Positions 14,931-58,264 of a stretch of DNA of 64,000 nucleotides are shown piece after piece. Position numbers and translations under genes: made by a program. The notes under the pieces are model-generated. The model had not been told where the DNA came from, ran no database searches, and saw only the letters and a program-made list of their open reading frames with translations. Each line of letters begins with the position of its first letter. Position 1 is the first letter of the stretch. The stretch is from Octopus sinensis (lineage: Eukaryota): assembly GCF_006345805.1 (NCBI RefSeq), contig NC_043007.1:39556001-39620000 (forward strand). The letters run 5' to 3'.

Positions 14931-15025
14931 TGACATTTCTATGAATGAATGGATGGATTTGAGCATATGCATGTTAATGTATGTATTTATGCATCTGTAT
15001 GTATGCGTATATATATATATTTGAA

Positions 15026-15061
<36 letters not shown>

Positions 15062-15271
15062 CATACATAGATATATAATGTTTATTCTCCGATTTGAAGC
15101 GACAAATGACTGAAAAATGATGAGCTAACCTCAAGCAGAATCGAACTCACAAATCGACGCTTTCATGGTTCCTTGTGAATCTGATTGGTCAAACGCTCAC
15201 CCATCAATTTCGGTCAAATTTAGTTAATATATACTACTTAAATAATATTTTCTATTCATATAAAAATTAAT

Positions 15272-15326
<55 letters not shown>

Positions 15327-15450
15327 GTGTGTGTGTATGTGTGTGTGTATGTGTTGGTATGTATGAATTTATGTATGTAGTATGCATGCAGTGTGTATGC
15401 ATATATGTGTGTGTGCCCGTATGTAAGCATGTATGTATCTGTATGTGTTT

Positions 15451-15488
<38 letters not shown>

Positions 15489-16430
15489 TATGTGTGCGTG
15501 CATGCGTATGTGTGTGTGTATTTATGTTTTTAATTTTAGATTATTTAAGTTCCCACGGTAGAATTTGTATCGGTCATTATGAAAAAAACAAAGCACTTTT
15601 TGTTGCGCATAAGTGAGTTATCATGTGTGCACATCTACGTGTGTGTGTGTATGCACGTGAGTTAGTGTGTGTCCGTGTGTGTCTGTGTGTGTGTGTGTAT
15701 GCACGTGCGTTAGTGTGTGTCCGTGTGTGTCTGTGTGTGTGTGAGCATCGATATTTATATATACATATATATATGTACATGCATATGTACATACATACAC
15801 CTAAACTTACATATGTATAAGCACTTATCTAGAAGCATTCAATCACATTAGTAGCGTATATATATTTCTTTACTATACATGCTTATGTCATCCGCACGTG
15901 ATCGCCCTTGCGTAAATTCCAGGAAATTTAAATGGAAAAGAACATCTTCATAAACATATGCACATAGATATACGAGGAGGTACTCAAAAGTAACCGGAAG
16001 CGTTTACTGTGAGACAAGCCCGTTGTAGTTCAGGCTTCCGCCGCTAGAAGCAGATTGATGCGCCCTTCGGACATCAGTCTCCCGACCAGCAGCTTCTCGT
16101 GAGATTGTAATGCAACATGGCGCGTCTTTAATTTGCAGTGCCTCTTCTTTGTTTGTCGGTTTTTTGCGATGGCTGAAATGAAGGATCAGCGTGCTTCCGT
16201 GAAATTGCTTCCTGCTGAGGAAGACGGTGGCTGAAACAGTTGTCATGCTTCAAACAGCTTATGAGGATGCCATGCCGCCATGAACAAAACACAAGTTTAC
16301 GCTTTAGGAATGATAACTTGTCGCTTGAAGACCAACCTCGTTCAGGGCGATCGTCGACATCCCGAATAAATGAAAAGAGGAAAATTCATGAACTGATCAC
16401 CGAATAATTGCCGAACCATCACCGAACAAT

Positions 16431-16560
16431 TATTCTTTTACTCTTTTACTTGTTCCAGTCATTTGACTGCGGCCATGCTGCGGCACCGCATTTAGTCGAG
16501 CAAATCGACCCCAGGACTTATTCTTTGGAAGACTAGTACTTATTCTATGGGTCTCTTTTG
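16431..16560 (-). mobile_element. SINE family A 3' fragment nested in mariner
   Basis: Nearly identical to 16751-16885. Confidence 0.8.
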
Positions 16561-16750
16561 AGTAGACTCGTTGAGTGTAGACTCAACACATTCCTAAGAC
16601 GGAGACAAAATCAATGAAACGTTGCTGGGGTTTTCCGTTTCGCGGACATTAATGTCTCGTCTAATGTCGTTGGGGGGAATAAACAACATATGGTGAACTA
16701 CAGCAAAATTTACAGCTCTTTTATTTGGATAAAGGACAAAAAGATTTCGT

Positions 16751-17172
16751 TATTCTCTTTTACTCTCTTTTACTTGTTTCAGTCATTTGACTGCGGCCAT
16801 GCTAGAGCACCGCATTTAGTCGAGCAAATCGACCCCAGGACTTATTCTTTGGAAGACTAATACTTATTCTATCGGTCTCTTTTGCCGAACTGCTAAGTTA
16901 CGGGGACGTAAACATACCACCATCGGTTGCCAAGCGATGTTGGTGAAGACAAACACAGACACACAAACATATACACACATATGCATATATATATATATGC
17001 ACATATATACGACGGGCTTCTTTCAGGTTCTGTCTACCAAATCCACTCACAAGGCTTTGGTCTGCCCGAGCCTATAGTAAAAGACACTTGCCCAAGCTGC
17101 CACGCAGTGGGACTGAACCCAGAACCATGTGGTTGGTAAGCAAGCTACTTACACACAGCCTCTTCTGCGCCT
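16751..17172 (-). mobile_element. SINE family A, full length, nested in mariner
   Basis: Reverse complement of 4300-4694. Confidence 0.9.
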
Positions 17173-17661
17173 ATTCATAAATTATACCACCGCGGCGTTC
17201 GAGCGAGCCAGCGGCGATGATCGATCTTGATATGAATGGTGTGTCCTAGAGCTCCTACAAGCGAATTTTGAGCGAGAAATTCCGAAAGAAAGAATTACAG
17301 CAAAGTTTGTACCTCGCTTGCTTACCGAAGATCAAAAGCAGTGCCGACTGAATACGGGTCGTGAACTGAAAGAAGAGCTCGAGATTAATCCGGACTTTTT
17401 TCGAAGGTCATCACTGGTAACCAAAGCTGGAGTTACAGCATTTGCAGATGTGGAAAAGGTGAAGAAAAAAATAAACAACTGAGGCGTTAAAAGGCATCAC
17501 TTCGCAAGGGTTCCAGCACTGCTTCGAACAGTGAAAAACGCGTTTGTGCCGATGCGTAGCTTCGAATGGAGAATAATTTGAAGGCGATAAGAGTGTACAC
17601 ATATAAAACTAAGTTAATAAAATAATATCGCAAAATTCCCTCTGGATATCCTTTCGTATGT

Positions 17662-18041
17662 GGAAGCACTCCGTCGGTTACGACGACGAGGGTTCCGGTT
17701 GATCCGATCAACGGAACAGCCTGCTCGTGAAATTAACGTGTAAGTGGCTGAGCACTCCACAGACACGTGTACCCTTAACGTAGTTCTCGGGGATATTCGG
17801 CGTGACACAGAGAGTGACAAGGCCGGCCCTTTGAAATACAGGTACAACAGAAACAAGAAGTAAGAGTGAGAGAAAGTTGTGGTGAAAGAGTACAGCAGGG
17901 ATCACCACCATCCCTGCCGGAGCCTCGTGGAGCTTTAGGTGTTTTCGCTCAATAAACACTCACAACGCCCGGTCTGGGAATCGAAACCACGATCCTACGA
18001 CCACGAGCCCGCTGCCCTAACCACTGGGCCATTGCGCCTCC
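17662..18041 (-). mobile_element. tRNA-derived SINE family C with 12-bp TSD
   Basis: Head ggaggcgcaatggcccagtgg (A box) ... ggtttcgattccc (B box); flanks cctttcgtatgt / cctctcgtatgt. Confidence 0.9.
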
Positions 18042-18064
18042 CCTCTCGTATGTATGTAATGTAT

Positions 18065-18357
18065 GAATGACCACGGGATTGCACCTAGAAAGTTCCCATC
18101 CGAGGCACAAGTCCGCGCAAAGTTGTTGATGGAAGACTTGTACTCGCCCATGTATACCAGCCTCCCCTCTCCACGTCGCCGATGTTATCGAAGGGAGACA
18201 AAAGCTATATACCTTGGCACAACTTGTGTCTACAGCTGAGTGAACTGGAGCAACGTGAAATAAAGTGTCTTGCTCAAGAACACAACACTCAGCCCGGTCC
18301 GGGAATCGATCTCACAAGCTTATGATTGAAGCCCGACCCTCTAACCACTGAGCCATG
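18065..18357 (-). mobile_element. SINE with family-D core and a different tail
   Basis: cagctgagtgaactggagcaacgtgaaataaagtgtcttgctcaag...ctaaccactgagccat. Confidence 0.7.
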
Positions 18358-18359
18358 AG

Positions 18360-18900
18360 AGGAAGCTTGGTATGCTACTACGTGGTTACAGATTCAGTCC
18401 GACTGAGTGGCACAACGGACAAGTGTCTTCTGCTATAACCCCGTTTCGAATAATGCCGCCTGAGTAAATTTGTGAGACAGAAATTGTGTAGAAGCCCGTC
18501 GTTTATAATATGTGTAGAGTAATCCCTCGACTATCGCGGGCGTTACGTTCCAAAACCTCCCACAGGAATAATCAAAATCTAAAAAACTATAAAAGCCTAT
18601 CGGCCGCAGAAACCAGCAATATACTGAGGAGTCCTCGATATAAATTTACATATATTAGCCAAAAAAATACGCGATGTACTGAGTACACAATAGGTGAACC
18701 GCGATATAGCGAGGGATTACTGTATACACACACACATACATACACATCTGAAATGTAGTTGCGGTTAGAAAGAGCATTCAACCGTAGAAACCATGTCAGA
18801 ACAGAGAATGGAGCCTGGAGCGGTCCCGGCCTTACCAGCTCCTGTCAAACCATTCAACCCATGTCAGCATGGAAAACAAACATTAAGGGAAGATAATGAA
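18360..18900 (+). mobile_element. Degenerate SINE with A-type head and alternative tail, interrupted by a MITE
   Basis: A-type head to gaagcccgtcg; tail caacccatgtcagcatggaaaacaaacattaa after the MITE. Confidence 0.55.
18517..18722. mobile_element. pogo/Tigger-type MITE
   Basis: TIRs agtaatccctcgactatcgcgg / ccgcgatatagcgagggattactg with TA on both sides. Confidence 0.85.
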
Positions 18901-18914
18901 TGATATATATACAC

Positions 18915-19034
<120 letters not shown>

Positions 19035-19093
19035 CATACGTGTGTATGTACTTGTGTGATGTACTTACTTCTTTGTGTATGTGTGTGTGTGTC

Positions 19094-19138
<45 letters not shown>

Positions 19139-19771
19139 CACGCATGGGATGGTTTTAGTACCGTGATTTAGTTGCTCAGACTATATTGTGAACAGTTTTG
19201 GCAACAATGTCATTACATGTAGAGGTTCGTTGTGAGTGGTAAAGCCTGTTAAGATTTGTGATATCTTCCACATTGGCATGTTACAGGTGACATGTATATA
19301 TCGGTATCGTGGACTGGAATCAACCCTGTTTTTTTTATTGATCAGGTATTTAGTAGCTAACTCCTCTTCCTGTTCAGCGCTCTTTATAGATGAGATATAT
19401 CGCCGCATCTGTGATAAGTCCATTTATCCATCAACGTTCATTAGATTAGACATAACCAATGTATTATCTCAGTTTCACATTTTACCTGTTTAAAATTTTA
19501 CCTGAAGATGGTGATTTGTATGTTATGATGTAATTTTTAAACCCCATTAGCGTTCTCTTTTTATAACTACACCACAGATGGAACCAACCCCAAAACCGGA
19601 TCTACCGTTTAAAATGGATTTGGTACTTACACATTTGCAGTATCCTTCCAAAATTTGATACTTTCATTGTTGTCCGCCTCGCTTTGAAGTCTGTGTTATT
19701 TTACCTACCCATTTCTGATGTCCTTCGTGTTGATGTCTCTAGATCCTATTGAATCCTATAACAAATATTAT

Positions 19772-19815
<44 letters not shown>

Positions 19816-19829
19816 ATTCTCTTATCGTA

Positions 19830-20270
19830 AACGGCAAATGAGGGTTCAGTAAAACAAAGCGTTGATCATGCTCTGTTGACACGAATGTGTCTCTTGGGGC
19901 CTGCCGGTGCCTTGCAGACCTTTTGGCAGATGGAACAGGTTGAGGACTCTTGTGGATCGTTCACTGTGTATTCTTGAGTGGACGGCAAGGCCTGTTTTGC
20001 TTCGTGCTACAAAACCATAATGACAGGTAAGATTTTTATTTAGAGGAGCAGCGTTTTGCCACGGTGCCTTCGTGCTTGCACAAAGTGAGTCCCGATGAAG
20101 GAGTCGACTTTGCTCAAATCTTTGAACTGAGGAGAAGCAGGACTGGTGCCAGATTCTGCGTTTTGATGCTTTGTTTTCCCAGGAAGAAAAGGAATTGTTG
20201 CATCGCTTTTAGTTTACCTTTGAAGCGCAAGAGCGGCTTTCCTACAGACCTTCCAGTTGGGAATTAATCA
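19830..20270 (-). mobile_element. RTE-like LINE 3' end with C2H2 zinc-finger remnants
   Basis: Minus-strand peptides GRSVGKPLLRFKGKLK, TCHYGFVARSKTGLAVHSRIH and CSICQKVCKAPAGPKRHIR. Confidence 0.65.
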
Positions 20271-20508
20271 GATCATCTCTCACGTATGAGTGATTTAGAT
20301 AGTGGTCGATAACGTGTTTTTGAATTATATATATATATGATTTGAATAACACCTGTGTTTAACTCCATTTCACTTAACCCTGGAATTTATACCTTTATAA
20401 CTAAGCTGTAATATATTTGGCACGTGTGAACTTTTGCTACGCTGGTAACTATTTATTTTTTCCTTGTTATTCGTACACAATGAAAAATTATACATAGATT
20501 TATATATA

Positions 20509-20553
<45 letters not shown>

Positions 20554-20600
20554 ATACATATACAACACACATGCACACACACATATATATATATATATAT

Positions 20601-20603
20601 AGG

Positions 20604-20691
<88 letters not shown>

Positions 20692-20716
20692 CAGATAGAT
20701 AAATAGATAGATAGAT
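20601..20716. repeat. (GATA)n microsatellite
   Basis: Direct inspection. Confidence 0.95.
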
Positions 20717-21019
20717 ACACACGCACACATGTAAATCATATTTTCCGTTTGTAGTCTTTTTATTTAATCCTCAAAAAATTACACAGATGTGTAGAATGAT
20801 CCGGTGGTGATGCTGGACTTTGTATTTTTCATAGCTCCCATGGTTACCGAGATAATCTACTATAATAATACTCTTGTGTTTATGAATGAGAAAGGAAGGG
20901 GTGACGTAATACTTGGTAGTGGGATGATGAAAATTGTACGCTAAAAAATTAATCAAACAGCGTTTCAATTCTGTGTGAATATATGTATGTGTATGTAAAA
21001 GGGGAGTATGTGAATATGT

Positions 21020-21312
21020 GTGCCTGTGTGTGTGTTTGTGTGTGTATGTATGTGTGTGCGTGTGAGCGCGCAAAGGAAGTGCGATGGTTCATCTTTGTTC
21101 GCTTAGTATTTGGGTTCATTTTTTGATTTGGATGAATCTTGGTTGATTTTTTCCTTTTGTTGGTTAGTTATTTTTAGCGTTTTCACAGAAATAAGTCATT
21201 CTAAAATTGATTTTTAATGTAAGCGTGCCCAAACAAATCGAATGCTTATACAGAGCAGGTTCTACAGCCACATCATCGAAACCGACCGGGTGAAACCGGG
21301 CTTAGCTGCTAA
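21020..21312 (+). mobile_element. Non-autonomous Helitron-like element, degenerate
   Basis: 3' hairpin ccgggtgaaaccgg followed by gCTAA-t (CTRR terminus); 5' boundary uncertain. Confidence 0.5.
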
Positions 21313-21527
21313 TATATCTGCATTGAGTGTGAGTGTGTCTGTTGTGGTTTCTTGATGTTGGTTGAGGAGCTGTGGAGTTCAATATGGAACATTATTGTGT
21401 TTGTTGATGTATATTGATCTATATTGTTTATATTGTATTATTGTGTATATATATGTACGAATATGAGTATGTATGCATATTTTATTTATATGTAAATTAT
21501 TTAGGATTTGTACTCATACTTGCATTA

Positions 21528-21643
21528 GAATCTCTGAAGAGGCCGTAAGTTATTCTTGTTAATGTCTCATTTATACCTGCATTTATGGCTAATCGGTTAA
21601 ATGAGACATACCTGTCTTCATGGCCGAAACAGCTGTCAGGTTC
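21528..21643 (+). ncRNA. Type I hammerhead ribozyme with extended stem II
   Basis: gaatct-CTGAAGA-GGCC-[77 nt]-GGCC-GAAA-cagct-GTC-aggttc; palindromic stem III acagctgt; predicted cleavage after 21637. Confidence 0.8.
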
Positions 21644-21826
21644 AATGTAAATGTATTTTTATGTCTTGTTATATTTATTTAGTTATATTTCACCATATTG
21701 ATTGTAATTATTGTACTGTATTTATGTATAATATCATTGCTATTGTGTAGTGTTTTAATAAAGTATATGATTCGGTACTATCTGACAGTTGATTGATTTA
21801 GATATATTTCTCCATTTTCACCATTT

Positions 21827-21894
<68 letters not shown>

Positions 21895-22023
21895 ACCAAG
21901 ACCCCATGAACTATCAACTTCGTAAACAAACTTTAAACCCTACTAGAAATCAATGAAAGACAAATCGAATGCCATGAGAAGATAGGATACAAACAGTTCA
22001 CACACAAATAAACAAGTACAATA

Positions 22024-22082
<59 letters not shown>

Positions 22083-22169
22083 CATATGCATGTATGCACG
22101 TATGTATGTATGTGTATAGCTTACCCGGATCTTAATTTTTAAAATAAAGTATGTTATTGTTATTGTTAT

Positions 22170-22340
22170 AGGAAGCTGAGTCAATGTTCGCAAACGTTCT
22201 GAGCTCTAATCCTGTCCGGGTCAACTTGTTTTGTTTCCTACGGAGTTGATAGAATCTAATATCAGTGAAATAATGGAGTAGATTTAATTCAACGAAATAC
22301 CACTACCCAAAATTTCAGGCCTTGTACCTATGTTAGTAGC
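22170..22340 (+). mobile_element. SINE family B, highly degenerate
   Basis: cgttctgagctctaatcc...ggtcaacttg...cccaaaatttcaggccttgtacc. Confidence 0.5.
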
Positions 22341-22508
22341 AATTTCTTATACGTCATCGGTGTTTTAATTTTTGGCATTATATTACACTATGGTATCCAT
22401 AGCGTATTCAATCCAGTTTTGTACTGTTTTCTATGTTAAAATACTGTATTTTTAACTAATGTTGTTGTTACTAACGCCGTATATTATATTGTGTAATGTT
22501 CCAGAGGT

Positions 22509-22556
22509 AATGGTGTCATTGAGACCCAATGGTGTCATTGAGACCCAAAGGTGTCA
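22509..22556. repeat. 19-bp tandem repeat x2.5
   Basis: aatggtgtcattgagaccc repeated. Confidence 0.85.
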
Positions 22557-22664
22557 GGTAATGCTGAATAAGTGCTACGGATAGACCATAGTTAAGTTCC
22601 AAATTCGGTGATTTTGCGAATAAGGTGTTCAGCGTTGGTCAAATGTCAGCATGTGCATATAACA

Positions 22665-23097
22665 TTTTTATTTCGTAATAACATAAACCAACGCTGTGTA
22701 GATTTTAGAACATTTGTAGATAGGTCTTAGAGCTGTTTCCGGGATATTTATTATATTCCTTCATCGGACACAGTGTGAGGGGATGGTTAAAAAATGATTA
22801 ATTTAGATAAGATATAAAATAGAGAGTGAGGTCGAGGAAATAAAAAAAATAGATGTGAGATATGTAGGGATATTGCATTTGTAGATCCATTTTTTAAGGC
22901 AGAATGGTATACATATAATATTCCAATACCTTATGAGTAAAATCCAATAGAATTTATAATTGGTTATTCCAAGTATAGAGTTTATATACAGTGTTATTGA
23001 ATCCAGGGTTATCCTGGAAACAGCTGTAATACCTATCTATAAATGTTCTAAAATCTACACAGCCTTGGTTTTTTTTATCTCATTACGAAATAAAATT
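22665..23097. mobile_element. Fold-back element with degenerate hammerhead motifs
   Basis: Arms 22665-22746 and 23010-23097 are reverse complements; minus strand 22723-22772 reads cCGATGA-aggaatat..atatcccg-GAAAcagctcTA-agacc. Confidence 0.65.
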
Positions 23098-23100
23098 TAT

Positions 23101-23159
<59 letters not shown>

Positions 23160-23497
23160 CAAATGGGACAAGAACGCAAAACATCCGGAGAGTTAGGTGA
23201 TACAAAAATGGGACAACAAAACACCCAGATGGACGATACAAAGAAAACGAGGACGGGTCATTCGAAGTTTTCTTTCTTCAGTCGACTACCAGATTATCGT
23301 CGCAATTTCGGCTGATTATACTCGAGATTGCTACATTCTGGCGAGCCCCAAGGAAAAACTAAGCTAAAAGCATTAGATTCTTTAGAAGAAAGCAGAAAAT
23401 GTATACAAAAACAAGGACGGAAAAAAACGGACAATGCTACACAAATACAATAAAAATAATAACAGGACATAACAACAGGTGTCTTTCGACTAAGGAC

Positions 23498-23498
<1 letters not shown>
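23160..23498. repeat. Unclassified interspersed repeat
   Basis: Segments recur at 44890-44960, 46995-47035 and 59845-59975 (aaacaaggacggaaaa..gacaatg.tacacaaata). Confidence 0.7.
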
Positions 23499-23528
<30 letters not shown>

Positions 23529-23851
23529 TTACAAAATGAGCGCTATCAGCTGGGAGCTATTTTGCATACATGAATAAAATGTTTCACATGATTCCAACAC
23601 GGAATTTGGCAATATAGTTTAATAAGATGTCCAAACGGTCCCATGACCTTTAATAAGATATAAAATAAAATAAAATAAAATAATGAAATAAGTGTAATAA
23701 AAGAAGGACAGATCAACAATCTGCTATTATTTGTTTTAACTGTTTTCCTACAAATTTCAATGAAAACACTTATAGCCACGGTTAGAAACGGAGTACAGAC
23801 TAGGACGGACAAAACACCAAGAACAAGTTTAACAAATACGATGATGAAGAC

Positions 23852-23889
<38 letters not shown>

Positions 23890-24152
23890 CGACGACGATA
23901 ATGATGATGGTCATCGTCGTCATCATCATCGTCATCGCAGACGACGTCTTTGACACTATTATTATTTACTCTAGTTGGTAACCTCAGAACGGACAGCAGC
24001 CTGTTGTCAGAGGTTTCGCAGTGTCTCTTTCCGCAAATTATAAGCTTTGGTACTTGGATGTTAAATTATCGTGGGAGACACTTAACACTCAAGGACCACC
24101 ACCATTGTTATTATTATCAATATTGTTATTATTGTTATTATTATTGTTGTTG

Positions 24153-24214
<62 letters not shown>

Positions 24215-24335
24215 TATATTTGACTTTTGCTTTACATTTGTACAAGTTGGCTCCAAATCTCACCCAGAGACCTCAAGAGACAAGCTGGAAGCTCCTGTTG
24301 GTGTTATGCCTAGGGTGCCATATATTTGGTTTTGT
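24215..24335 (-). mobile_element. R4/Dong-like LINE 3' UTR (subfamily 1) abutting (TTA)n
   Basis: Reverse complement of 46460-46580. Confidence 0.75.
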
Positions 24336-24361
24336 ACTTAGTGTTGTACTAGTGAATGTTT

Positions 24362-24436
<75 letters not shown>

Positions 24437-24498
24437 AGTAGTAGTAGTTGTTGTAATGGTAGCAGCAGCAGCAGTAGCAGCAGTAGTGGTAGTAATGC

Positions 24499-24560
<62 letters not shown>

Positions 24561-25588
24561 TTGAGTGAGAGAGCTAAGCATGCCATCAAGATGAAACTGG
24601 AGTACAAATATACGGAGTCCAATATACCCATCAGTACTACCCGTCTGATAAGGGTACACCAGACACATGCATCACAACCCTTTGTGTTTGACATGGTGAT
24701 TTCATATAAAGATAGACAGCGCATGACTTGGTAGCGAGGGCTTGGTCCTGTGCAGCAATGATCAGGCTTTCGATGGTACGCTTCAAATCACCTCGCTCAA
24801 GCCGTGTCCTCAACACTGTATTATCCTTAACGTCCTGTGTATTCCTTTCAAACTGTCCATGCGTTCTCATTTCAAGAAGGTCTTCTTTTCTCTTCTACTC
24901 AGCTCTTTTGTTAAACGCTTCCTTACCCATCATTTCATCTGCATTTACACACATATCTTTCACGGCATATTGCAGCAGGTCTTCATCACTATTTATTAAA
25001 TATTCGGCAACAGTTCTCCTTTCACCCCTTATATAATGGTCTATACTAATTAGTCCCCTGCTACCGCTCTTTGTTTTCATATACAATCTATTACGTTTAC
25101 TTTAGGGTGTAGCGCCCCATGCAGCGTCATCAACTTTCTCCTCCTTCTATCCAGTGTTGATATTTCTTCCTTAGTCCATTTGAGGATGGATGCACTATAT
25201 CTGACCACCGCAACTGCTCAGATATTCATTGCGGTAATCAAACTTTTGACATTCATGTTGGATTTCAACACCATTTTCACCCTTTTTTGATACGTCTCTC
25301 TGATCTTGGCGTTCACTTCTACGTGTAGAATGTCATCCAACTCCCAAATGCCTAAATATCTATATTCACTACTTTTGGGTTTACCAATGGTCTCTCCTGA
25401 TGGTGACCGCAGTCCTCTGTAAGCTGCTTTCTTCCTTCTTTTCATATTAAGTACTGAGCATTTCATAATCCCAAATTCCATACCGATATCCCTAACACAT
25501 TTCTAGACTGTTTTGGTCAAGGAATCTATCTGTTTTTCAGATTTCCCAAACAATTTCAGGTTATCCATAAACAGAAGTATTTACACTT
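24561..25588 (-). mobile_element. R4/Dong-like LINE RT fragment joined to a 3' terminal repeat
   Basis: Peptides LLFMDNLKLF, MEFGIMKC, YRYLGI, LYMKTKSGSRGLISI and ESLIIAAQDQALAT; 24561-24730 matches the ends of the 60016-61159 units. Confidence 0.85.
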
Positions 25589-34101: not shown

Positions 34102-34583
34102 TATGCTACGCATACATAAGTCCCATAAATTGAATTATTGTAAACACTATAATGAGAAACTCATAAAAACAGCAAGAAATTTATGTCGCATCGAACAAGA
34201 AACCGACAGTAAGAAATATGATTCAAAAACATGAGAATTATAAGTTTGCTATTCAACCTCAAACCACCACCTGAAAGTCATGGAATACATTTTGGATAGC
34301 TAACGTATCACACAGGCTTCAATATACATATGTAAGTTGTATACTTCATAACTTAAGCTTTTAGAAAGGACAGACATGTATAATAGTTTATTGCCAGTTG
34401 ATAATGCATTTACAATTCAGATCATTGCAGCATATTACAATAACGGAAGCGAAATGAAACGAAACAGAAACAGAAAAAAAGCATTAATTTATAATACAAG
34501 CATACTATTTATAGTACCGCAAAAAAGAAAACTGGAAGTTTATGTATTAGTCGAAGTAATGTCCTCATCTTGATAGTTGCTTT

Positions 34584-34625
34584 CACTACGTTTCGGATGT
34601 GTTCGCTCCAGACTGCTTCAGGTGT
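34584..34625 (-). ncRNA. Degenerate hammerhead, same family as 37481 and 56675
   Basis: acac-CTGAAGC-agtctggagcg..atcc-GAAAC-GTA-gtg followed by aagatgaggac. Confidence 0.5.
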
Positions 34626-34713
34626 CTTGTAATTTATGTTAGTGTGTTGCCTCGATGTGTGTCGTCATGATAGATCGCTAGCCACTACACGTTCTTCATT
34701 TTTTCTCCTTGTT

Positions 34714-34751
34714 TCTTTCTATGGAAGAGCGTAGGCTCGAAACGTTAAAGA
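34714..34751 (+). ncRNA. Degenerate minimal hammerhead in an interspersed repeat
   Basis: tcttt-CTATGGA-a-GAGC-gtag-GCTC-GAAACGTT-aaaga; all stems intact, 5' core mutated. Confidence 0.5.
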
Positions 34752-34935
34752 CGTTTTCACTTTCCGAGCGTCAAGCTGATACATCTGTTTGTTGTCTAAA
34801 CCACCTGTCTTCGTCTTTTGTTTTTTGTGAATTCTCCCTATATATGTGTGTCTGTGTGAGAGAGAGAGAGGGTGTGTGTATGTGTGTGTATGTGTGTGAG
34901 TGTGTGTATGTGTGTGCGTGTGTATGTGTGTGTGT

Positions 34936-36985: not shown

Positions 36986-37480
36986 CTTGTATGTGACGTG
37001 TGTGTGTGTGTCTGTGTGTCTGTATGTGTGTGCACGCGCGTATCTACATCTGTGTGTGTGTCTACACTCAAAATCGTTAAGCATACAAGAACCTCACAAT
37101 GGAGAAAATCTTAATTTGGCTAATTGAAGCTTTCATTGCTTAAGTGTGCTCAACATCTAAATAACAATTCGTTAGGGGTTATGACCAACACCTAAATGGT
37201 TAAACGGAATGCATGATTGCCAAATATCTTCACACATCGACTATGTGCATATATTTTCCTCACACCTGGATGTGTATTCGCCGACATCAAGAGGTAGTTG
37301 CGAGCAATGGCTTCCACAGCCGGCCGGTATACTGGTTACTAGGGTTACTAGGGATTTAATATAAAGGGAAGGAAGCGAATATATTTTAGACAAGAAAAAT
37401 ACACTTCTATATTTCTGTTATGAAGACTACATAATATGCATTAGTCGGGATGGTGATGTTCTCATCTTCATTGTCGCTTT

Positions 37481-37522
37481 CACTACGTTTCGGCCTTTGA
37501 GCGCTCCAGCCTTCTTCAGGTC
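37481..37522 (-). ncRNA. Minimal hammerhead motif
   Basis: gac-CTGAAGA-a-GGC-tggagcgctcaaag-GCC-GAAAC-GTA-gtg; core intact, stem I only 2 bp in this copy. Confidence 0.6.
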
Positions 37523-37547
37523 TCTTATGATCCACTTTACTGCCATG

Positions 37548-37613
37548 CCTGAGATTGGACTCGGAACCTTCTGCGAGTTCACTGCATTTCAGCGCCCTTA
37601 TCCACTACGCTAC
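37548..37613 (-). promoter_or_regulatory. tRNA-like Pol III head upstream of the hammerhead
   Basis: A box TAGCGTAGTGG matches TRGCNNARYGG; T-arm-like ccgag-tccaat-ctcag with a mutated B box. Confidence 0.5.
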
Positions 37614-37651
37614 ATAAAGAAAACAAGAGCGTACACAGCAGAAACATAGTG

Positions 37652-55952: not shown

Positions 55953-56013
<61 letters not shown>

Positions 56014-56019
56014 TATTAA

Positions 56020-56233
56020 GGCGGCGAGCTTGCTCAATCGTTAGCACTCTGGATGAAATGCTTCGCGGCATTTCGCCCGTCGCTACATTCTTAGTTCAAA
56101 TTTCGCCGAGGTCGAATTTGCCTTTCATCCTTTCGGGGTCGATAAAATAAGTACTAGTTGAGCACTGGGGTCGATGTAATCGACTAGTCCCCTCCCCCAA
56201 AATTGCTGCCATTGTGGCAAAATTTGAAACCAG
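56020..56233 (+). mobile_element. SINE family B monomer in (TTA)n
   Basis: Complete head, core and tail. Confidence 0.88.
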
Positions 56234-56407
56234 TATTATTATTATTATTAAGGCGGCGAGCTGACAGAACCGTTAGCACGCCGGGCGAAATGGCTAGCGG
56301 CATTTCATCTGTTTTTATGTTCTGAGTTCAAATTCCGCTGAGGTCAACTTTGCCATTCACCTTTTTGGGGTCGATAAATTAATTACCAGTTAAACACTGG
56401 AGTCGAT

Positions 56408-56776
56408 ACAGCTCTATATTTAAGAGATGAAGAATTATGTACAATATTTACATTTGACGGATATTTGTTCTCATCTTGTTTGTTGTTAACACGTTTCGGC
56501 TGATATACCCTCCAGCCTTCATCAGATGTCTTGGGGAAATTTCGAACCTGAGTTCCCATTCCTAAGGTATTTTTCGATGTCATCATCATCATCATCATCA
56601 TCATCATCAATATTATTATCATAACACCTAAAAATTACCATAGGAATGAGAACCCTGCTTCGAAATTTCCCCAAGACACCTGATGAAGGCTGGAGGGTAT
56701 ATCAGCCGAAACGTTGTGTTAACAACAAACAAGATGAGGACAAATATCCGTCAAATGTAAATAATGTAAATAATGT
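56408..56776. mobile_element. 369-bp non-coding fold-back element with hammerheads and 12-bp TSD
   Basis: Arms about 56440-56580 and 56622-56768; (CAT)n spacer; TSD actggagtcgat at 56396-56407 and 56777-56788. Confidence 0.88.
56675..56720 (+). ncRNA. Minimal type I hammerhead ribozyme
   Basis: gacac-CTGATGA-a-GGCTG-gagggtatat-CAGCC-GAAAC-GTT-gtgtt; palindromic AACGTT stem III; mirror copy with a 3-nt deletion at 56488-56530 (-). Confidence 0.8.
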
Positions 56777-58264
56777 ACTGGAGTCGATGTAACTGACTTA
56801 GCCTGTCCTCCGAAATTGCTGGCCCTATGCAAAAAGTTTGAAATTATTATTATCATCATTATTATTATTATATTATTATTATTATTATTATTATATTATT
56901 ATTATATTATTATTATTATCATTATTATTATTATTATTATACTTTACATGACAGGGATGACAATCGTTTCTATGATGAGGAAGAGGTAAAGAGGATCTTC
57001 TTCCTCGTAGTTCTTCTCTACATCATCATCATCATCATCATTAACATCATCATAAATGAACGTCATTATCGCTATACATTGGTTAACATGTTTAACATAT
57101 GATAGTTATGATACAAAATTTGTTGTAGATGATGAATATGATGATGATGATCATCATCATCATGATCATCATCATTATTGTCATGAGGAGGAGGAGGGGA
57201 GTCAGTGGTGGTGGTGCTGCTGCTGCTACTGCTGCTGTTGAGGAGTAGGAAGAGGAGGCGGGGGAGAAAGGGGTGGAGGAGGAGGAAGGGGAAAGGAAGA
57301 TTTGGAGGGGATGAATGATTGCTGTGATAATGATGGCGGCATTGCAGATGATAAAATAAGCATACAGAATGAAATAGAATGAAATCGTATGAAATAGAAC
57401 GAAACAGAATTGAACAAGAGCAGAACAGAAAAGAAAATAGAGGAGAAGATAGAGAAGAAAATGAAAGAAAAGACGAGAAGATGAAGCGAATAGAAGAGAA
57501 GAAGAAGAAGAAAGCGAAACAAAACAGAGATGATTAGAAATCAATACTTGTTAAAGCCGACGAATCTGTATTTGGTATTCTCTGTCTGCACCATTATGCT
57601 ACCATTTAAAACTAAAAATGAAAAAGGATAAAAGAAAAAACCATGTAGAATAATAAGAAGGAAAACAGACAAATATAACGACGTCAAACAAACAAAATTT
57701 ATACAAAATGGCGAACACATAGAAGAAGCAGACGACCGAGAAGATGGTGTAGAAAAAGGGGGAATAACTAACAATAAAACACCAACAACAACAACAGCAA
57801 AAATATTAATGAAATAAAATAAAATAAAATATAATGCTACAAAACAAAGATATCTCAAAGTGGACGATGAAAAAGAAGAAAGAAAATGAAGAAATATTGG
57901 TAATTTCATTTAGAAAGCCTTGTTAGAAAAAGGGTAAAAAAAGAAAAAAGAGAATCAAACTTGCAACGCCAGACATTCAACATGGTATACGTTCCGCTGG
58001 TCTTATTATCTCTAACGCAATTTGACGGCTATCCCAAGAGAAGATGATAAATTTATTTCCTTGATCTCTCAAGCAACGTGGCTAGCTACTTCGAATAACA
58101 GTTGAAAGTTGTGTTCTTTGTTCTGGCCTCAGTCTAGCTAGCTTGTTTCAACTGTTGGACTGTTTGACTGTATAACTGTTTGACTGTTTGACAAAAGCTG
58201 TCTTTTGATATGAAAGAAACGCGGTTGTATGTCTACGTATGAGTGTGTGTCTATATGTAACTCC

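What the first reader, a model, noticed from the sequence alone, without database searches (positions are those of the whole stretch)
56408..56776. Self-contained 369-bp fold-back mobile element carrying two opposed hammerhead ribozymes
Seen: a perfect 12-bp TSD (actggagtcgat) splits a SINE; between the two copies lie ~140-bp inverted arms around a (CAT)n spacer. The right arm has a complete minimal hammerhead (56675-56720, GUU triplet, palindromic AACGTT stem III) and the left arm a mirror copy with a 3-nt deletion. There is no coding capacity. Known: Penelope-like elements carry minimal hammerheads in pseudo-LTRs that can be inverted, and retrozymes are non-autonomous hammerhead retroelements. 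Inference: a non-autonomous, PLE-mobilised hairpin retrozyme-like family that inserted as one unit, with a ribozyme motif on each strand.
Basis: partly seen in the sequence, partly recalled or inferred. Interest (0 to 1): 0.8.

Follow-up and report, generated by a model that had tools for sequence, protein, structure and literature searches.

The report
tRNA-headed Penelope repeat with ribozyme scar
The 369-base hairpin is one of thousands of two-armed fragments of an octopus Penelope-type jumping gene whose end repeat carries a tRNA-like segment that likely acts as its promoter, and about one arm in nine lacks exactly three bases at the predicted ribozyme cut site, likely a scar of self-cleavage in the cell.

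Summary
In detail: 12-bp TSD, inverted arms, one minimal hammerhead, and a 3-nt deletion in the other arm. The reading as a self-contained fold-back family does not hold. The insertion is two 5'-truncated copies of the pseudo-LTR (pLTR) of a 2.6-kb Penelope/Poseidon-type element, found here with its RT/endonuclease ORF. The copies are joined head to head; one has the 26-nt tail, one lacks it. The inversion point varies (spans 106-1030 bp in 50 two-armed copies), which is known PLE anatomy. Two features were not found in the papers searched. (1) The pLTR starts with a tRNA-derived A/B-box head; 72 of 133 head-bearing arms end within 21 nt around its first base, and no T4 run is shared by aligned copies of the unit. 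This suggests Pol III transcription. (2) 271 versus 2,117 exact-match arms lack 3 nt at the hammerhead cut site. The loss occurs in both subfamilies and is usually in one arm only (20 of 27 partners intact), while subfamily markers agree between arms. This fits reverse transcriptase jumping across a self-cleaved RNA. Neither Pol III use nor cleavage was shown; poly(A) RNA reads showed no ends at the site. New variant of a known kind.

The parts
56396..56407 (+). Left copy of the 12-bp target-site duplication
   Evidence: family TSDs found in 44 of 66 two-armed copies, most often 12-13 bp
56777..56788 (+). Right copy of the TSD
56234..56395 (+). 5' part of the host SINE-like repeat that was split
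   Evidence: family D3 (79% to 56002-56175)
56789..56838 (+). 3' part of the host SINE-like repeat
   Evidence: family D4 (73% to 56164-56225)
56408..56580 (-). Tail-bearing arm: 5'-truncated pLTR copy (body positions 1-175)
   Evidence: (L001), 90% to natural copy L128
56408..56433 (-). 26-nt PLE 'tail', present on this arm only; likely the stretch between the two RT start sites
   Evidence: 3' ends cluster at body 171-175 and 139-149; PMC11167929
56488..56530 (-). Hammerhead motif lacking 3 nt at the cleavage triplet (loss between 56493 and 56492)
56410..56559 (-). First 50 codons of the PLE ORF (one codon short because of the deletion)
   Evidence: same frame continues into RT in L371
56581..56631 (.). 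Junction: remains of the pLTR trinucleotide microsatellite of both arms; tRNA head absent in this copy
56632..56776 (+). Tail-less arm: 5'-truncated pLTR copy (body 7-149)
   Evidence: (L001), 92% to L128
56646..56774 (+). First 43 codons of the PLE ORF
56675..56720 (+). Complete minimal type I hammerhead motif, GUU triplet, predicted cut 56715/56716
   Evidence: descriptor in PMC4209133
37400..37620 (-). Older related family (family 2): tRNA-like head, hammerhead with GUA triplet, tail
34500..34700 (-). Further decayed relative: hammerhead-like motif and tail

Best explanation
The hairpin is a single insertion of two 5'-truncated, head-to-head copies of the pLTR of a Penelope/Poseidon-type retrotransposon, likely made by separate reverse transcription of each arm from RNA that likely starts at a tRNA-derived Pol III promoter, and its 3-nt deletion is likely a scar of hammerhead self-cleavage. 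Shown: the source unit is about 2.6 kb and reads pLTR - ORF - pLTR. The pLTR runs: about 30 nt after the stop codon, tRNA-like head, (AAT)n, start codon, hammerhead, 9-bp hairpin, tail. Inferred step 1: transcription starts 7-10 nt before the head and can run through the whole unit, which has no shared T4 terminator. Inferred step 2, from the Anolis PAc biochemistry: the element protein cuts both target strands 12-13 nt apart and primes on each, one at the outer start site (tail kept), one at the inner site (no tail). Priming in the 5' pLTR copies at most about 280 nt, giving SINE-like solo pLTRs. The two cDNAs meet at short homologies, so the inversion point varies. Inferred step 3: in about a tenth of arms the RNA had been cut after GUU, and the enzyme resumed on the upstream piece through a 2-nt GU match, dropping 3 nt. 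This copy has no head and is predicted to be inert. Odds by step: PLE pLTR two-armed insertion 0.93; arms templated separately 0.75; Pol III promoter 0.6; cleavage scar 0.5.
For: Source element: the tail of L273 runs on in frame into coding sequence, 311 candidates; full units in L361, L362, L377; RVT_1 hit E 9e-9; 56% identity to unnamed P0005 and 40% to an Anolis carolinensis protein over the RT, against 29% to a Neptune-like ORF of the same genome. Arms: 43 of 50 two-armed copies are tail plus tail-less, 6 are both tail-less, 1 both tailed. Markers agree between arms in 35 of 37, 46 of 49 and 24 of 24 pairs. Head: G1 start, A box at +8, B box, z 7.7 against the best of 15 distinct genome tRNAs; boxes 77% and 75% identical between families 1 and 2, spacer 45% (shuffled 38%), 17 of 18 copies scored. 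5' ends of 133 arms: 72 at -18 to +3, 22 spread over -22 to -794, 39 inside the head. T runs over 2,602 aligned columns: 382, 74, 15 and 0 of length 1, 2, 3 and 4+, about 3.75 expected, p 0.024; Neptune-like ORFs have 9 and 10. Deletion: 271 versus 2,117 exact matches; 14 of 156 arms against 0-3 at five other 3-nt repeat contexts (p 0.005 against the strongest); in both subfamilies and both arm types; no linked variant, best p 0.012 of 306 tests; partner arm intact in 20 of 27.
Against: No pile-up of read ends anywhere on L128 among 1,700 laid reads of a poly(A) run, and PMC11167929 found none for PAc and showed cleavage is not needed for insertion in vitro. Both arms carry the deletion in 7 of 27 pairs, more than the 11% base rate (p 0.024), so arms are not fully independent. 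Family 2 shows the matching deletion in only 1 of 34 (not significantly lower, p 0.17). The triplet is GUU in nearly all family 1 arms, recalled as a slower site than GUC or GUA. T4 depletion is weak by codon resampling of natural fragments (1 seen, 3.8 expected, p 0.08). Rfam and ARAGORN do not call the head a tRNA reliably and it does not fold as a cloverleaf. Marker sites 50 (body) and 27 (head) were not concordant between arms. Core, stems and loop of the hammerhead decay at the same rate as flanks in copies. The endonuclease region has no Pfam hit. An uncapped Pol III RNA would need an unexplained route to translation.
Confidence: 0.7

Rival explanations
1. Ordinary PLE debris. Insertion as above, but the element is transcribed by Pol II. 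The tRNA-like head is an old passenger, the 5' pile-up is an RT stop or fold-back at the small GCCC/GGGC palindrome (or an RNase P cut at G1), and the deletion is DNA slippage after insertion.
For: D. virilis Penelope uses a LINE-like TATA-less internal promoter (PMC2377424). The palindrome sits at the pile-up. T4 test is marginal. The deletion lies in a GT-N-GT context that becomes a TGT tandem after CpG decay; 4 of 14 deletions show that T.
Against: A and B boxes are kept between two families while the spacer changes in sequence and length. 39 of the 72 piled ends lie at -10 to -3, 5' of G1 and across the palindrome, though some of these letters come from the opposite arm. The stronger AAC repeat nearby deletes in 3 of 162 against 14 of 156. 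10 of 14 deletions lack the T that slippage would use.
Confidence: 0.25
2. An independent PLE-mobilised SINE: solo pLTR copies with their own Pol III head are the main source genes, and the ORF-bearing copies only supply protein.
For: Solo full-head arms (72) outnumber arms that run into the ORF end (22). Every full solo copy carries both boxes and the RT start sites. Family 2 has a shared piece joining ORF start to ORF end, so a non-autonomous derivative did amplify once.
Against: Subfamily markers occur at similar rates in solo copies and in both classes of ORF-linked copies; no solo-specific lineage was seen. This rival is compatible with most of the best explanation and differs only in the template.
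Confidence: 0.3
3. The second arm is a snap-back copy of the first cDNA, or both arms come from a pre-formed hairpin master that moves as one unit.
For: Subfamily markers agree between arms; 7 of 27 pairs share the deletion; many full-length pairs meet at the 5' palindrome.
Against: Copying predicts about 95% sharing of the deletion; 26% was seen (p 6e-21). Either arm can be the longer one. Spans vary tenfold. Arm-to-arm identity within an insertion (92.4%) is no higher than between insertions (92.1%); rare alleles shared 16 of 319, 10 expected.
Confidence: 0.08

Closest known systems
Penelope/Poseidon PLEs, in particular PAc (Poseidon of Anolis carolinensis; PMC11167929, parts 1-2 of 4 read)
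   Same: Single RT-endonuclease ORF that starts inside the pLTR at the hammerhead; two 3' ends separated by a tail; both target strands extended; AT-rich targets; inverted 5'-truncated partner copy (also bioRxiv 2021.04.23.441226, passages). An Anolis protein of 836 aa is among the homologues.
   Different: tRNA-derived A/B-box head and microsatellite in the pLTR; start codon 34 nt before the hammerhead core, not in stem II; a recurrent 3-nt loss at the cut site. None of these appears in the parts read.
Minimal hammerheads of metazoan PLEs (PMC4209133, parts 1-2 of 4 read)
   Same: Short helix I, extra nucleotide before stem II, palindromic 15.2-16.2, and pairs on opposite strands 100-700 bp apart, which that paper already notes in Schistosoma.
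   Different: Here the motif is tied to a tRNA head and to a countable deletion at the cut site.
Sm-alpha / Sj-alpha of Schistosoma (passages in PMC2770079 and PMC6765202; primary papers not read)
   Same: tRNA-related, Pol III-type repeat followed by a hammerhead.
   Different: Those are tandem SINE-like repeats with canonical hammerheads and no ORF. Here the unit is the pLTR of an ORF-bearing PLE, dispersed and head to head.
Non-LTR retrozymes (PMC7229834 passages; bioRxiv 2026.07.22.740005 part 1 of 5 and passages)
   Same: Short hammerhead repeats related to PLE pLTRs.
   Different: Retrozymes are direct tandems that yield circular RNA; no tRNA head is mentioned in the passages found. Family 2 here is closer to that design than the finding is.
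TRIMp3 elements Helenus, Ajax, Cassandra (PMC10886601, abstract and outline)
   Same: A small-RNA-derived Pol III promoter inside the terminal repeat of a retroelement.
   Different: They are non-autonomous LTR elements with PBS, PPT and 4-5 bp TSDs. Here the repeat belongs to a protein-coding PLE.

Membership tests
EN+ PLE, Penelope/Poseidon clade | [quoted passage not shown] | tested here: met
   RVT_1 hit; copies align over the length of P0005 and of the Anolis protein including the C-terminal region; two-tyrosine motif visible. No Pfam GIY-YIG hit; all copies seen are broken.
EN+ PLE, Penelope/Poseidon clade | pLTRs and partial tandems flanking the ORF | tested here: met
   L361, L362, L377; partial tandems of many lengths
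EN+ PLE, Penelope/Poseidon clade | Minimal hammerhead in the pLTR | tested here: met
   sequence match only
EN+ PLE, Penelope/Poseidon clade | Optional tail and inverted 5'-truncated copy | tested here: met
   tail 26 nt, a little shorter than the 30-40 nt quoted
EN+ PLE, Penelope/Poseidon clade | Clade placement by RT phylogeny | not tested
   Pairwise identities only; no tree was built
tRNA-derived SINE | tRNA-related head with A and B boxes | tested here: met
   Rfam tRNA model not reached
tRNA-derived SINE | Transcription by RNA polymerase III | not testable with these tools
   Indirect only:
tRNA-derived SINE | Non-autonomous source genes distinct from the partner element | tested here: inconclusive
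   Markers shared with ORF-linked copies
Non-LTR retrozyme | Direct tandem units each with a type I hammerhead | tested here: not met
   Copies are dispersed and head to head; a few direct partial tandems exist (L221)
Non-LTR retrozyme | Abundant circular RNA | tested here: inconclusive
   A few 'goes back' joints of 3 reads each, with extra letters between, not at the cut site
MITE / Foldback DNA transposon | Terminal inverted repeats with fixed ends on both sides | tested here: not met
   26-nt one-sided tail, variable second end and centre
Active hammerhead ribozyme | Self-cleavage at the NUH site | not testable with these tools
   No read-end pile-up in one poly(A) run; cofolding gave no clean dimer

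The most novel reading that the evidence does not exclude
An autonomous, protein-coding Penelope-like retrotransposon runs on a captured tRNA-type Pol III promoter, sheds its own 5' end as some 20,000 SINE-like pieces, and has left a genome-wide fossil record of its hammerhead cutting in vivo: a 3-nt loss in about 11% of arms, made when reverse transcriptase crossed the cut.
Probability: 0.3. Interest if true: 0.85.

Novelty: new variant of a known kind. Interest (0 to 1): 0.62.

Why it matters
Whether the minimal hammerheads of PLEs cut in cells is open: the papers read report low activity, no need for it in vitro and no matching read ends. A site-exact, arm-specific deletion that can be counted in thousands of copies would be genomic evidence, and it can be sought in any PLE-rich genome today. 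The same counts test how inverted PLE insertions form, favouring two separate reverse transcriptions over snap-back copying. A tRNA-derived promoter inside a coding PLE would blur the line between PLE and SINE and give a route by which hammerhead SINEs such as Sm-alpha could arise.

Tried and rejected
Rfam scans: no hammerhead hit on the finding, no tRNA hit on 8 loci with heads. ARAGORN at relaxed score called scattered weak tRNAs in 8 of 27 sequences, not consistent. Pfam GIY-YIG search of the genome returned other, mostly Neptune-like PLEs; none of 30 plus 20 loci shared the tail, so that route missed the partner. An early impression that the deletion is specific to the tail arm came from the query's own state; in the unbiased sample it is 6 of 55 tailed and 6 of 70 tail-less scored arms. 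A 5' truncation hotspot at the cut site is only suggestive: 6 ends in 5 nt against 34 in 74 nt, p 0.03, with anchor bias. Run search: no RNA holder listed. Read lay: both orientations, 76% running on into unlike sequence, so most reads come from copies inside other transcripts; the deletion showed in 3 of 690 reads, probably undercounted. Dimer cofold did not return the catalytic fold. No covariation test was run: stems are the same in families 1 and 2. A strict A/B-box pattern used as a control on 24 loci missed even the known heads, so it says nothing. DNA context of the unnamed homologues could not be read, so the head's spread beyond this genome is unknown. PMC5785218 is not held. No paper supplements were opened; Repbase, Dfam and SINEBase were not available, and the 1994 octopus SINE paper (OK, OR1, OR2) was seen only as a citation, so the family may be catalogued there. 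Ten paper searches found no tRNA-headed PLE and no cut-site deletion; subscription journals are mostly missing. Earlier scan findings: none.

Full report
Observation. The features are there. A 12-bp duplication flanks 56408-56776 and splits a SINE-like repeat. The arms pair over about 140 bp. The right arm has a minimal hammerhead with the extra nucleotide and palindromic stem III described for metazoan PLEs in PMC4209133. The left arm, on the other strand, lacks 3 nt at the triplet. The left end has 26 nt with no partner. The host is an octopus, judged from a named Octopus sinensis protein that begins with 36 residues of this element (92% identity).

The family. The genome holds 5,207 first-look candidates and 2,842 exact matches to a 37-mer. 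With about 5% divergence that implies roughly 15,000-25,000 arms (my estimate). I fetched 89 distinct loci covering the first 96 of the 100 matches listed on contig C1. The recurring unit is a 76-nt head, an (AAT)n tract and a 175-nt body with the hammerhead. Fifty of the 89 have a second, inverted arm, always 5' to 5'; 43 pair a tailed with a tail-less arm; spans run from 106 to 1030 bp. TSDs were found in 44 of 66 pairs from three samples, most often 12-13 bp. Inverted truncated copies with a one-sided tail are standard for PLEs (bioRxiv 2021.04.23.441226 and PMC8969392, passages).

The source element. In L273 the tail continues in frame into coding sequence. Searching with that piece gave 311 candidates. 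L361, L362 and L377 hold whole units of about 2.6 kb: pLTR, ORF, stop codon, about 30 nt, then the head and body again. The ORF starts inside the body, 34 nt before the hammerhead core. It has an RT and is closer to an Anolis protein (40%) than to a Neptune-like ORF of this genome (29%); I read this as Penelope/Poseidon clade, without a tree. An unnamed relative at 49% identity keeps the residues that the hammerhead region encodes. The short elements are therefore this element's own pLTR. All ORF copies seen are broken.

The head. It starts GGGC at a tRNA-like position 1, has an A box at +8, a D-arm, a 7-nt anticodon-type loop and a B box (read from the sequence; box consensus recalled). It scores z 7.7 against a tRNA-Arg(TCT) gene and 2.7-6.8 against 14 other distinct tRNAs from this genome. 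An older family keeps both boxes while the spacer changes (best-match anchoring inflates the box values somewhat). Of 133 head-bearing arms, 72 end at -18 to +3, 22 run back into the ORF, and 39 break inside the head (the sample joins the unbiased and the deletion-anchored loci). That is 3.4 ends per nt against 0.03 upstream. Twelve aligned long copies share no run of four T in 2,602 columns, where about 3.75 are expected; two Neptune-like ORFs of equal T content have 9 and 10. Codon resampling of single decayed fragments is weaker (p 0.08). Together this suggests a Pol III start just before the head and read-through of the unit. It is not shown. D. virilis Penelope uses a LINE-like promoter (PMC2377424, passages).

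How the two arms form. PMC11167929 reports that the Anolis protein is predicted to be a dimer, extends both target strands and starts at two internal sites whose distance is the tail. That predicts what is counted here. Subfamily markers agree between arms (35 of 37, 46 of 49, 24 of 24; two other sites did not), so both arms come from the same kind of source. Either arm may be the longer.

The deletion. It is present in 271 exact matches against 2,117 intact, and in 14 of 156 arms against 0-3 at five other 3-nt repeat contexts. It occurs in both subfamilies and has no linked variant. In 70 deletion-anchored loci, 28 had no partner body within 900 bp, 15 partners could not be scored or had another change, and of 27 scored partners 20 were intact and 7 deleted, while marker 59 agreed in 21 of 22. 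So the loss mostly arises arm by arm. A cut after GUU followed by a jump through the 2-nt GU match gives exactly this product (inference). The excess of shared deletions could reflect both RNAs of a dimer being cut, some snap-back copying, or deleted source copies. Against: no read ends at the site, only 1 of 34 in family 2, and slippage after insertion is not excluded without orthologous loci.

This copy. Both arms broke in the microsatellite, so it has no head. One motif has no triplet. A transcript across both arms is predicted to pair them. It is most likely inert.

Comparison and novelty. It works like a PLE and meets the PLE features that could be tested. It is not a retrozyme or a MITE by the tests above. 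tRNA-related hammerhead repeats are known in Schistosoma and tRNA-bearing LTRs in Helenus. A tRNA head in the pLTR of a coding PLE, and a cut-site deletion, were not found in ten searches or in part 1 of 3 of a 2026 O. vulgaris repeat paper. Repeat databases and supplements were not seen. Verdict: new variant of a known kind, interest 0.62.

Noticed in passing
window 37400-37620 (-); L232-L260: Older family 2 (70-86% to the window copy) with head, GUA hammerhead and tail. Several copies carry a shared piece in which about 50 nt of ORF start are joined to the ORF end, so a short non-autonomous derivative amplified.
   Followed up: partly
window 34500-34700 (-) and 34720-34840 (+): A third decayed hammerhead-plus-tail relative, and beside it another repeat end whose inverse lies downstream of the GIY-YIG match in L031.
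   Followed up: no
P0002: An annotated Octopus sinensis protein of 368 aa begins with 36 residues of this element's ORF start, ahead of a cysteine-rich, probably membrane protein: exonisation or an annotation artefact.
   Followed up: no
L091, L092, L093: Neptune-like PLEs with open frames of 775-883 aa; many genome hits have the same score, so one family looks young. L092 has a hammerhead-like motif with a U3-A8 core after its ORF.
   Followed up: partly
body 107-157 of the pLTR (L128:1696-1746): A 9-bp hairpin encloses the inner 3' end and is kept in families 1 and 2 with different loops; a 9-nt unit inside it varies in copy number. Candidate protein-binding or RT start signal; fold z only -1.2.
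   Followed up: partly
L128 read lay: A>G and T>C differences at 27 and 23 places in the RNA run; inverted copies could be editing substrates, but copy variation cannot be separated here.
   Followed up: no
L149, L159, L168, L317; L174, L294: Several arms share the same unrelated repeat upstream of the microsatellite, probably other elements inserted into or ending at the (AAT)n tract.
   Followed up: no
L040, L041: Two GIY-YIG matches look like SLX1-type host nucleases (recalled label), not PLEs; L041 has stops.
   Followed up: no
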